A stretch of DNA of 64,000 nucleotides from Eledone cirrhosa (Eukaryota): contig OZ024740.1 in the NCBI GenBank assembly GCA_964016885.1, forward strand, positions 352,966,001-353,030,000, in the 5' to 3' direction. A model generated the notes under the pieces. The model saw only the letters and a list, made by a program, of their open reading frames with translations. It was not told the origin of the DNA and searched no databases. The position numbers and the translations under genes were made by a program. Positions 2,134 to 4,727 of this stretch are shown one piece after another. The number at the start of each line of letters is the position of its first letter. The first letter of the stretch is position 1.

Positions 2134-3072
2134 GTAAGTGATATTCTATTAAAATTTACTGATTTTTATTCACTGGTAGATATAATTATATATAAATCAT
2201 AAACGTTACATTCTAGAGTGATAGTTTTAGCAAAATCAATATTTTGAAAAGGATTGTTAGTGTTGGCAGTATCGGTAAAGAGTCGAATTTTATACATACA
2301 TACATATATATATATATTTATTTATTCATTTTCTGGTTTCAGTCATTAAACTGCCGTTATGCTCGGGTATCGTGTTGATTTAGTCGATCCTATCAATTCC
2401 AGTACAGGTCATTTTGTCTTTCCTACATTTGAAATCTATAAATAAAGCAGCAGTTATATACTGGATAGATTCTTCAACAATCTCTCTCTCTCTCTCTCTC
2501 TCTCTCTCTCTCTCTCTCTCTCTCTCACCCCTTTCTCTGCAAGCAATCAACTACGTTCAGATCTGGAGATAGATGAATTTTGCCATGTTCAAATATCCAA
2601 GACACATTATGACGTTATCTATCAGGAGCTTAGAGCCCATGGATGGATTGATCGTATCAATTCCAGTACAGGTCATTTTGTCTTTCCTACATTTGAGATC
2701 TATAAATAAAGCAGCAGTTATATACTGGATAGATTCTTCAACAATCCCTCTCTTTCTCTCTCTCAGCCACACGCACTTCTCATTCTCTCTCTCTCTCTCT
2801 CTCTCTCTCTCTCTCTCTCTCTCTCTCTCTCTCTCTCTCTCTCTCTTAGGCTCTTTCACGACCTCACCCCTTTCTCTGCAAGCAATCAACTACGTTCAGA
2901 TCTGGAGATAGATGAATTTTGCCATGTTCAAATATCCAAGACACATTATGACGTTGCCTCTCAGAATCTATCAGGAGCTTAGAGCCCATGGATGGATTGA
3001 TCATATGACATAAATATTTATTTAACATCGACAAAATGATATATAAACTATGTTTTTCTTCTTTTTTTTCAG

Positions 3073-3093
3073 ATATGAGTAAGCCTCATTATG
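3073..3093 (+). CDS. micro-exon C (21 nt, DMSKPHY)
   Basis: ttttttttcag|ATATGAGTAAGCCTCATTATG|gtaagt, phase 1-1. Confidence 0.72.
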
Positions 3094-3221
3094 GTAAGTG
3101 ATATTCTATTAAAATTTACTGATTTTTATTCACTGGTAGATATAATTATATATAAATCATAAACGTTACATTTTAGAGTGATAGTTTTACCAAAATCAAT
3201 ATTTTGAAAAGGATTGTTAGT

Positions 3222-3430
3222 GTTGGCAGTATCGGTAAAGAGTCGGATACCATGTTTTGAAGCATAGAGTTACGTCCCTTTATGATCTGAGTTCAAATCC
3301 TGCCGAGGCTAACTTTGCCTTTCATCCTTACGGGGTCGATAAAATAAAGCACCAGTAACGTACTGGGGTCGATTTAATCGACTTTCCTCGTCCCCCAAAT
3401 TACTGGCCTTGTGCCTATAGTAGAAATCAT
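3222..3430 (+). mobile_element. tRNA-derived SINE
   Basis: Same family with the full tail gtcgatttaatcgac...ggccttgtgcctatagtagaaa. Confidence 0.85.
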
Positions 3431-3499
3431 TATTAGTAGTAGTATAGGTTGTCCAGATTTTCAAACGGTCACCTATTCAGAGGAGGGGGCTCTCAAGAG

Positions 3500-3905
3500 A
3501 GAGTTTAGAGTATCAGGGCTCTGATCAATTTAGAACAGCTGGCTTCGGTCTCTTCGTCAGAGGCTGGATCGCTGCAATGCACAGCAGCATCTACTCGGTG
3601 GTCAGAGTTAATGGCCATCTTTCGGAACCGTTTCAGATCTCTCGATCGGTTCGTCAAGGGTGCCCTCTCTCCTCCCTTCTGTACGTATTGACTCTCGAGC
3701 CTTTACTGCGGAGGCTGGAGCTGTTGCAGGATATCCTGCTCCAACTAGGACGTGGAAGGGTGGTGTCGGCATATGCAGACGACATCACCGTAGTGGTATC
3801 GAACACCTGCTTGGAGGAATATGAAAGGTTGACGAGAGCAAAACTAAACCCGGAAAAGTCGGTGGGCTTTTGGCTCGGCATCTCGAGAGACAAGTCCATG
3901 CCGCA
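3500..3905 (+). mobile_element. L1/Tx1-like LINE reverse transcriptase fragment
   Basis: VRVNGHLSEPFQISRSVRQGCPLSSLLYVL...VSAYADDITV. Confidence 0.85.
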
Positions 3906-4581
3906 AATGGTAATATGTTGCCCATGAAGAATTGTAGCTAGCTTTTACATGGGATACATGAATAAATCCAAATTTTGGAGCTAAAAATAGGTGTGGGGTA
4001 ACTTTTAGATGAAATCGAATTTTACACATACATACATATATATATATATTTATTTATTCATTTTCTGGTTTTAGTCATTAAACTGCCGTTATGCTCGGGT
4101 ATCGTGTTGATTTAGTCGATCCTATCAATTCCAGTACAGGTCATTTTGTCTTTCCTACATTTGAGATCTATAAATAAAGCAGCAGTTATATACTGGATAG
4201 ATTCTTCAACAATCCCTCTCTTTCTCTCTCTCAGCCACACGCACTTCTCATTCTCTCTCTCTCTCTCTCTCTCTCTCTCTCTCTCTCTCTCTCTCTCTCT
4301 CTCTCTCTCTCTCTCTCTAGTCTCTCTCTCTCTCTCTCTCTCTCTCTCTCTCTCTTAGGCTCTTTCACGACCTCACCCCTTTCTCTGCAAGCAATCAACT
4401 ACGTTCAGATCTGGAGATAGATGAATTTTGCCATGTTCAAATATCCAAGACACATTATGACGTTGCCTCTCAGAATCTATCAGGAGCTTAGAGCCCATGG
4501 ATGGATTGATCATATGACATAAATATTTATTTAACATCGACAAAATGATATATAAACTATGTTTTTCTTCTTTTTTTTCAG

Positions 4582-4602
4582 ATAAGACTACGCATCATTA
4601 TG
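4582..4602 (+). CDS. micro-exon D (21 nt, DKTTHHY)
   Basis: ttttttttcag|ATAAGACTACGCATCATTATG|gtaagt, phase 1-1. Confidence 0.72.
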
Positions 4603-4727
4603 GTAAGTGATATTCTATTAAAATTTACTGATTTTTATTTACTGGTAGATATAATTATATATAAATCATAAACGTTACATTCTAGTATAGTTTTACCAAA
4701 ATCAATATTTTGAAAAGGATTGTTAGT

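What the first reader, a model, noticed from the sequence alone, without database searches (positions are those of the whole stretch)
3001..4700. Duplicated micro-exons differ only at second codon positions while their introns are nearly identical
Exon C is AT ATG AGT AAG CCT CAT TAT G and exon D is AT AAG ACT ACG CAT CAT TAT G. They differ at four of 21 nt, in four consecutive codons, always at position 2, and every change is non-synonymous (M/K, S/T, K/T, P/H). The roughly 70 nt of intron upstream of each look identical, and the downstream flanks have only a few changes. Inference: either diversifying selection acts on the peptide, or gene conversion homogenises the introns but spares the exon. 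The pattern also supports these being real exons in this frame.
Basis: partly seen in the sequence, partly recalled or inferred. Interest (0 to 1): 0.8.

Follow-up and report, generated by a model that had tools for sequence, protein, structure and literature searches.

The report
Fast-diverging duplicated micro-exons, octopod surface protein
In what is likely an octopus relative, three tiny duplicated exons are spliced one after another into the same messenger RNA and differ from each other far more than the introns around them do; they encode the outer tip of a small protein predicted to be anchored on the cell surface, with no relative found in the limited searches possible, and the pattern likely reflects selection for new surface sequence.

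Summary
In detail: exons C (3073-3093) and D (4582-4602) differ at 4 of 21 nt, all at codon position 2 and all non-synonymous. Their flanks differ at 3 of 550 nt (Fisher p=4e-5; 4e-4 if the SINE 3' part is counted). The exons are real and lie in cis: an RNA-type contig (depth 1107) reads B-C-D in order and splices on through two Cys exons, so mis-assembly is refuted. The gene is predicted to give a 121-aa protein: signal peptide, five phase-1 micro-exons, a six-cysteine domain and a GPI-like tail. No homologue or paralogue was found, but only single exons could be searched. The units likely arose by unequal crossover between two SINEs, because the middle SINE is a hybrid. Third copy B shares D's state at three of the four sites. 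'All non-synonymous' is unremarkable (p=0.44). The position-2 and all-transversion pattern is not explained by selection alone. Best reading: diversifying selection on a variable arm of a surface recognition protein (0.55). Main rival: one complex mutation (0.25). It works like schistosome micro-exon genes but is not one.

The parts
1688..1708 (+). Micro-exon A, 21 nt, phase 1-1; predicted end of the signal peptide and start of the mature protein. The predicted first coding exon (40 nt, most of the signal peptide) lies 11.2 kb upstream of the window, at L006 8843-8882 = G000:C1:352954843-352954882.
   Evidence: Splice signals; the last 12 nt of A are inferred to be in the RNA contig by length arithmetic. 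First exon: best candidate by eye among the hits, sequence, in frame with A; not covered by RNA.
1815..1967 (+). SINE-like copy S1, 3'-truncated; upstream boundary of the duplicated array
   Evidence: Alignment; informative sites; the SINE label is recalled, not from a library
2116..2133 (+). Micro-exon B, 18 nt, phase 1-1 (TTHHY); first copy of the unit, 3 nt shorter than C and D, in frame
   Evidence: RNA contig joint from 2133 (table 5c)
2258..2285 (+). SINE-like copy S2, 5' stub only; the rest of the SINE and the LINE piece are deleted at a TCGA microhomology
   Evidence: Junction comparison
2283..3072 (+). Intronic block upstream of C: an older diverged copy (2283-2653), then a copy identical to D's upstream (2662-3072, apart from the (TC)n length)
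3073..3093 (+). Micro-exon C, 21 nt, phase 1-1 (MSKPHY); the divergent middle copy
   Evidence: Its letters stand between B and D in the RNA contig at depth 1107 (table 5c); a 16-mer of it is unique in the genome
3220..3445 (+). SINE-like copy S3, a hybrid: 5' part like S4, 3' part like S1; inferred unequal-crossover junction
   Evidence: First 8 of 14 variable sites equal S4; of the last 6, 4 equal S1, 1 equals S4, 1 is private
3448..3924 (+). LINE reverse-transcriptase fragment inside the C-D intron
   Evidence: Pfam RVT_1 E=1.7e-9
4015..4581 (+). Intronic block upstream of D, with the (TC)n tract
4582..4602 (+). Micro-exon D, 21 nt, phase 1-1 (KTTHHY)
   Evidence: RNA contig joint to 4581/4582
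4726..4914 (+). SINE-like copy S4, downstream boundary of the array; carries a ~30-nt internal deletion relative to S3 and S5
10451..10468 (+). Micro-exon E, 18 nt, phase 1-1 (MNSPN); older paralogue of B/C/D whose upstream intron (5146-5230) is separated from it by about 5 kb of LINE-like sequence
13063..13117 (+). Exon F, 55 nt, three Cys
   Evidence: GT..AG joint 13117>14161 at depth 1107
14161..14237 (+). Exon G, 77 nt, two Cys plus the first base of the sixth
   Evidence: Joints on both sides; single copy in the genome
15520..15855 (+). Last exon H: sixth Cys, predicted GPI omega region and hydrophobic tail, stop at 15612-15614, 3' UTR with poly(A)-signal hexamers at 15690, 15709, 15847 and 15855
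   Evidence: 336-nt piece of the depth-1107 contig; the GPI signal was judged by eye from recalled rules, no predictor was run

Best explanation
Three near-identical intron-exon-intron units each add one spliced micro-exon to a highly expressed gene, which is predicted to encode a small GPI-anchored six-cysteine surface protein; the units likely arose by unequal crossover between SINEs, and the exons likely diverged under selection on a variable arm that would serve in surface recognition. Shown: B, C and D are in one mRNA, in order and in frame, and the exon is far more diverged than its flanks. Inferred: two SINE copies flanked one ancestral micro-exon; non-allelic crossover between them gave a tandem copy with a hybrid SINE; a further unequal exchange gave three copies; later deletions reshaped the introns. 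Because each exon is symmetric phase 1, every gain keeps the frame and adds one module ending in His-Tyr-Asp/Glu to the mature N-terminus, ahead of the disulfide-bonded domain. The 3' HY end of the module stays constant and the first four codons change. I commit to selection for new sequence at an outward-facing arm that contacts a variable partner (microbe, parasite, gamete or conspecific tissue). The partner and the tissue are unknown.
For: RNA-type contig with B-C-D in cis and GT..AG joints at depth 1107, against intronic depths of about 5-25 for the listed X4 pieces. Exon versus flank 4/21 versus 3/550, p=4e-5. Three-way B/C/D: 5 substitutions in 21 exon nt versus 5 in 202 flank nt, p=8.5e-4 (counts made by hand), plus an in-frame 3-nt indel. 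Exon site 4 has three states (G/T/A) in the most parsimonious alignment, implying repeated independent change. Older paralogue E matches C at 9 of 17 and D at 8 of 17 exon nt, while its flanks match at 80-89% in local alignments (69-78% by blastn). One X1 contig carries a two-base Tyr>Ser difference in exon F, 2 of its 3 differences in 1.6 kb. No homologue was found even though an Octopus bimaculoides protein is in the database, which fits fast evolution. Hybrid SINE. Schistosome micro-exon genes show raised dN/dS and one TE-linked exon duplication (PMC4350168).
Against: Only 4-5 sites. No orthologue or population data, so no dN/dS. All-non-synonymous is expected by chance 44% of the time. All four changes are transversions at position 2 with a strict 3-nt period: joint p=0.0003-0.0045 even given four non-synonymous changes, which selection does not predict. 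The cluster test weakens to 0.039 if the SINE 3' part is counted as flank. The exon F difference is probably one event (about 1 of 4 in the long X1 pieces listed), and Logan contigs show only one allele per bubble. The local alignments for E overstate flank identity. The signal exon and GPI anchor are inferred. The recognition role has no direct evidence. The homologue searches used 26-48-aa pieces and are weak.
Confidence: 0.55

Rival explanations
1. One complex, templated mutation (template switch or quasi-palindrome correction) changed several bases of exon C at once, and the result drifted or was tolerated; no sustained selection is needed.
For: Four changes in 10 nt, all transversions, at a 3-nt period (joint p=0.0003-0.0045). 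B equals D at 3 of 4 sites, so most change can be placed on C. C has a perfect 5-bp inverted repeat where B and D have 3 bp (p=0.034 under four random changes, post hoc). The exon F variant is also a two-base change.
Against: No donor: the 16-mer of C is unique in the genome, and the 10-nt core has one other match in 524 kb, 249 kb away, as chance predicts. By hand check a simple micro-inversion does not give C, and hairpin correction still needs about three events. Site 4 has three states and B has its own in-frame deletion. E agrees with C at two of the sites and with D at one.
Confidence: 0.25
2. Allele capture or bounded conversion: a recent unequal exchange put D's upstream intron in front of an older, diverged allele of the exon, so C is a captured allele. 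The intron identity is recent and the exon difference is older, possibly a balanced polymorphism. This overlaps with the best explanation, since old divergent alleles would also need selection.
For: 0 of 348 differences upstream versus 3 of 202 plus an indel downstream, with the boundary at the exon (p=0.049 / 0.018). The identical tract starts at a microhomology junction near 2650, next to an older diverged copy of the same block. At D's substitution 4640 and D's indel, C equals B downstream.
Against: Downstream divergence of 1.5-3% predicts 4 or more changes in 21 nt with p=2e-4 to 3e-3. At one downstream site C equals D, not B. No second haplotype of the array was seen.
Confidence: 0.13
3. 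The arm is a His/Tyr-rich metal-binding or cross-linking tether of a structural surface coat. Only the number of HY modules matters, the first codons are unconstrained, and the cluster is chance.
For: The HY end is constant in B, C and D. High expression. All-non-synonymous is unremarkable. Cluster p is only 0.039 in the lenient test.
Against: Unconstrained sites should evolve at the intron rate (0.5-1.5%), not 19%: binomial p=5e-6 to 2e-4.
Confidence: 0.06
4. Assembly artefact: the units are collapsed or mis-joined haplotypes.
For: No DNA contig spans the array, and a DNA contig over unit C looks chimeric (record 9).
Against: One RNA-type contig at depth 1107 has B, then C's letters, then D. 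Exons shorter than the 31-letter word mean that single words span three exons. The units have distinct structural junctions.
Confidence: 0.01

Closest known systems
Schistosome micro-exon genes (MEGs) and the composite SmVAL6 (PMC4350168: abstract, introduction, part of methods and passages read; PMC4015677: passages read)
   Same: Runs of very small symmetric exons; signal peptide, secreted or membrane-anchored product; raised protein divergence; one exon duplication tied to a transposable element. SmVAL6 joins a micro-exon run to larger exons for a folded domain.
   Different: Here micro-exons are 99 of 366 coding nt (27%), not most of the coding region (up to 75% in MEGs). The gene is single-copy in the searches made. 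Exon skipping is not shown. The host is a free-living mollusc, whereas MEGs are described as apparently restricted to flatworms. No sequence similarity was tested or is expected.
Accelerated exon evolution and ASSET (short exon segment switch) in snake three-finger toxin genes (PMC2711939: abstract and section 10 read)
   Same: A short exon segment is replaced while introns stay highly similar and the cysteines are kept; that paper leaves the mechanism open, as it is here.
   Different: Here the change is between tandem exons within one gene, not between paralogous genes. The product has a predicted GPI tail and no three-finger cysteine pattern. There is no evidence that it is a toxin.
Tandem exon duplication in metazoans (PMC3342872: passages read; 7-17% of genes, generally with mutually exclusive splicing)
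   Same: Recent tandem duplication of an exon with its flanks.
   Different: The copies are included together in the dominant transcript and lengthen the protein. They are 18-21 nt long, and the SINE junction is still readable.
Ly6/uPAR three-finger GPI proteins (features recalled, no call)
   Same: Small size, signal peptide, Cys-Asn just before a GPI-like tail.
   Different: Six cysteines spaced 5-9-6-5-13, not 8-10; no CC-x4-CN or C-x2-C motif; no Pfam hit for single exons.

Membership tests
Schistosome-type MEG | Most of the coding region in very small exons | tested here: not met
   99 of 366 coding nt, from the exon lengths; criterion from PMC4350168 and PMC4015677 passages
Schistosome-type MEG | Micro-exons symmetric (multiples of 3, same phase) | tested here: met
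   A-E are 21, 18, 21, 21 and 18 nt, all phase 1
Schistosome-type MEG | Signal peptide; secreted or membrane-anchored | tested here: inconclusive
   Hydrophobic N-terminal exon and hydrophobic tail; no predictor available; first exon not covered by RNA
Schistosome-type MEG | Isoform pool made by exon skipping | tested here: inconclusive
   The one high-depth contig includes B, C and D. Its 5' end falls exactly 30 nt before the B/C junction, which fits a second path leaving exon B (skip to F, or a partly spliced molecule). Most joints were not shown.
Schistosome-type MEG | Raised dN/dS between orthologues | not testable with these tools
   No orthologue found
Ly6/uPAR (three-finger) GPI proteins | 8-10 Cys with a C-terminal CC-x4-CN motif (recalled) | tested here: not met
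   Six Cys at 48, 54, 64, 71, 77 and 91; no Pfam hit for exon pieces
GPI-anchored proteins | Small residues at omega..omega+2, a short polar spacer, a hydrophobic tail to the C-terminus (recalled) | tested here: inconclusive
   N-A-G 25 residues before the end, a 4-residue spacer and a 19-residue tail of moderate hydropathy (window means 1.0-1.3); judged by eye
SINE-mediated non-allelic recombination duplication | Same-orientation repeats at both ends of the unit and a hybrid repeat at the junction | tested here: met
   S1 and S4 flank the array; S3 switches from S4-type to S1-type near 3290-3300, with one discordant site (3337). At 3 of the 4 S1=S3 sites a fifth copy S5 sides with S4.

The most novel reading that the evidence does not exclude
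This is a cephalopod counterpart of the flatworm micro-exon genes: a lineage-specific, GPI-anchored recognition locus (self/non-self, gamete or anti-parasite) whose exposed arm is diversified by SINE-driven gain of 6-7-residue exon modules, rapid replacement within them and combinatorial skipping, with copy number and sequence varying among individuals.
Probability: 0.15. Interest if true: 0.8.

Novelty: new variant of a known kind. Interest (0 to 1): 0.5.

Why it matters
It is an unusually clean, very recent case in which the birth of coding micro-exons can be read step by step (hybrid SINE, junction deletions, RNA proof that all copies are included) together with immediate divergence confined to 10 coding bases. 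Annotation pipelines miss 18-21-nt exons and short orphan genes, so a class of fast-evolving cephalopod surface proteins could be hidden. If the locus is polymorphic and exposed, it is a testable candidate for recognition in an animal group where such molecules are poorly known (my own knowledge, not from a paper read here). If the four changes arose at once, it is a small, datable example of the unexplained 'segment switch' seen in toxin genes.

Tried and rejected
Homologue searches could use only single-exon open frames, so all blanks are weak. ESM Atlas: no usable hit for the exon G frame. phmmer of the 35-aa exon G frame against 1.84 billion representatives: 0 hits at E<=0.001. The 48-aa exon H frame against proteins of 85-2000 aa: 26 candidates, none at E<=10. 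Pfam: 0 families for the exon F, G and H pieces. PDB sequences: 0 for G; one hit at E=0.14 for F, a small TIM subunit, taken as chance cysteine spacing.

Paralogues in the own genome: exon G and exon H each found only themselves (1 of 1). A Cys-spacing pattern for exon F gave 45 matches against 43 for the reversed control, mostly (TG)n. By eye L011 and L020 have in-frame stops; L012 is open and was not followed. tblastn of 524 kb of neighbourhood showed no paralogue in the rows seen for the signal, F and G queries; the output was cut within the H rows, and the flank blastn was re-run.

No donor sequence for exon C was found. No RNA holder was listed; X4 is taken as RNA only from its GT..AG joints. 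DNA depth was not used as copy number. DNA record 9 over unit C (10 gaps) first looked like a second allele, but the 10-nt gap matches the deletion in the older intronic copy, so I read it as a contig chimera. No fold was predicted because the spliced domain is not a single stretch of DNA.

Literature: 'micro-exon'+'octopus' gave 0 papers; 'microexon'+'cephalopod' gave 2, unrelated by listing; searches showed nothing on such a protein by title and abstract start (20 of 27, 15 of 46 and 15 of 129 listed). PMC4824008 passages gave no SINE sequence, so the SINE label stays recalled. No supplements were read. Earlier-findings look-ups: nothing for this place or genome.

Full report
Observation. 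The two exons are as described. C (3073-3093) and D (4582-4602) differ at exon positions 4, 7, 10 and 13, each the middle base of a codon in the phase-1 frame, giving M/K, S/T, K/T and P/H. The upstream flanks are identical over 348 of 348 aligned nt (the (TC)n tract was left out). Downstream there are 3 differences in 202 nt plus a 3-nt indel, then 5 in the 69 nt of the SINE 3' part. Fisher p is 4.4e-5 without and 3.6e-4 with those 69 nt. The chance that any 21-nt window collects four changes is 0.0047 or 0.039. I exclude the 69 nt because they appear to descend from a different SINE copy (below), but both numbers stand. 'All non-synonymous' has p=0.44. 'All position 2' has p=0.006, or 0.018 for any single position.

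The exons are real and in cis. Of 7 runs listed, the four holders were laid on 1600-17770. X4 is not on record as RNA but behaves as RNA: it has GT..AG joints 13117>14161 and 14237>15520 at depth 1107, and a 558-nt contig of that depth whose 336-nt piece is the last exon. Table 5c shows a joint from 2133 (end of B) to 4581 (D) with exon C's letters between, at the same depth. The lengths add up if exon E and the last 12 nt of exon A are also in the contig; that part is inference. The 12 nt of A plus the 18 nt of B make 30, one less than the 31-letter word, which would place a branch exactly at the end of B. That could be a partly spliced molecule or a skip to F; a variant base in exon A is the alternative. 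DNA contigs cannot check the array, because they merge near-identical copies: record 9 carries a 10-nt gap that matches the older intronic copy. X1-X3 may be the sample the assembly came from, and all four runs are one study.

The gene. A 40-nt hydrophobic ATG exon 11.2 kb upstream of the window (L006 8843-8882; not covered by RNA), five symmetric phase-1 micro-exons A-E, exons F and G and last exon H give a 121-residue frame. It has a signal-peptide-like start, a His/Tyr/Thr-rich arm of about 27 residues, six cysteines spaced 5-9-6-5-13, then an N-A-G site, a short spacer and a 19-residue hydrophobic tail. By recalled rules that is a GPI signal; no predictor was available. A neighbouring gene's only hit is an Octopus bimaculoides protein (76% identity over the 60-residue region), so the host is likely an octopod. 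The unit has 3 copies genome-wide, and exons G and H are single. No homologue was found in any library, but only 26-48-residue pieces could be searched.

How the copies arose (inferred). SINE-like copies S1 (1815) and S4 (4726) bracket the array in the same orientation. S3, between C and D, equals S4 at the first 8 of 14 variable sites; of the last 6 it equals S1 at 4, S4 at 1, and is private at 1. At 3 of those 4 sites a fifth copy, S5, sides with S4, so S1 and S3 share the unusual state. S3 also lacks S4's ~30-nt deletion and ends in a sequence resembling that just before S1. This is the signature of unequal crossover between S1 and S4. The ancestral unit was probably SINE, LINE fragment (RVT_1), intronic block, exon, flank. 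Deletions later shortened the first two units, one at a TCGA microhomology, and a 59-nt deletion is shared by C and D. Exon E is an older duplicate: its flanks match B's at E=1e-7 to 1e-8, and about 5 kb of LINE-like sequence splits its upstream intron.

What drives the exon difference. B also has its own in-frame 3-nt loss and, in the most parsimonious alignment, a third base at site 4. Across the three copies there are 5 substitutions in 21 exon nt against 5 in 202 flank nt (p=8.5e-4; hand counts). E matches C at 9 and D at 8 of 17 exon nt while its flanks match at 69-89% depending on method. One DNA contig has a two-base Tyr>Ser difference in exon F, 2 of its 3 differences over 1.6 kb; that is probably one event and weak support. 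These point to repeated protein-changing events in the exons. Against plain selection: all four C/D changes are transversions at position 2, joint p=0.0003-0.0045 given four non-synonymous changes, and C has a perfect 5-bp inverted repeat (p=0.034, post hoc). That keeps a single templated mutation alive, although no donor was found in the genome. Conversion or exchange probably did homogenise the upstream intron (0/348 versus 3/202; p=0.049), with the boundary at the exon, but even 1.5-3% background gives four changes with p=2e-4 to 3e-3. My weights: selection 0.55, single complex mutation 0.25, allele capture 0.13, neutral structural arm 0.06, artefact 0.01.

How it likely works. Shown: high-level co-inclusion of B, C and D, and frame-preserving modules each ending in His-Tyr before an acidic residue. 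Inferred: the protein is GPI-tethered, the six-Cys domain acts as a pedestal, and the mature N-terminal arm faces outwards. Each duplication lengthens the arm by one module and the new module's first residues are quickly changed, as expected for a surface that meets a variable partner. Tyr next to Asp/Glu could be sulfated and the His pairs could bind metal (recalled motifs, untested). Tissue and partner are unknown.

Comparison. It works like schistosome micro-exon genes: symmetric tiny exons, secreted or anchored products, raised dN/dS, and one TE-linked exon duplication (PMC4350168: abstract, introduction, part of methods and passages; PMC4015677: passages). It fails membership: micro-exons are 27% of the coding sequence, skipping is not shown, and the host is not a flatworm. 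The composite SmVAL6 is the nearer architecture. The exon-faster-than-intron pattern with an open mechanism recalls ASSET in snake toxin genes (PMC2711939: abstract and section 10), but nothing marks this protein as a toxin. Tandem exon duplication is common, at 7-17% of metazoan genes and usually with mutually exclusive splicing (PMC3342872: passages); here the copies are co-included. It is not Ly6/uPAR by cysteine pattern (recalled criterion). Searches for octopus or cephalopod micro-exon genes found nothing relevant (listings only, open-licence library; no supplements read).

Verdict. A real, RNA-supported, well-resolved case of recent micro-exon duplication with sharply exon-confined divergence in an apparently orphan octopod surface protein. 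The kind of process is known; this gene and its architecture appear undescribed. The selection claim rests on few sites and no orthologues. New variant of a known kind; interest 0.5.

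Noticed in passing
window 13074-13075: One X1 contig has two adjacent different bases in a Tyr codon of exon F (Tyr>Ser), 2 of 3 differences in a 1.6-kb contig; probably the second allele.
   Followed up: partly
window 1697 / 2133: The depth-1107 RNA contig is calculated to start exactly 30 nt before the B/C junction; a hint of a second splice path after exon B, or of a variant or edited base at 1696.
   Followed up: partly
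L046 2583-2960 and 5319-5804 (minus strand; about 75-110 kb from the window start): Neighbouring gene with repeated ~55-residue exons; only hit is Octopus bimaculoides XP_014780069.1, 1769 aa, PF24398 precomputed. A useful synteny anchor.
   Followed up: partly
window 17900-18850: Inverted duplication of an element of a few hundred bases flanked by (TA)n; a similar element lies in L005 at about 890-1530.
   Followed up: no
window 5300-10000: About 5 kb of decayed LINE-like sequence separates exon E from its upstream intron copy at 5146-5230; no Pfam hit for the one frame tested.
   Followed up: partly
L005 6830-7490: Degenerate tandem repeat of about 25-30-nt units in the first intron.
   Followed up: no
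window 60512-62226: 1.7-kb (TA)n array.
   Followed up: no
window 32405-32799: Head-to-tail pair of the same SINE-like element, period 201; another local sign of SINE-mediated tandem duplication.
   Followed up: no
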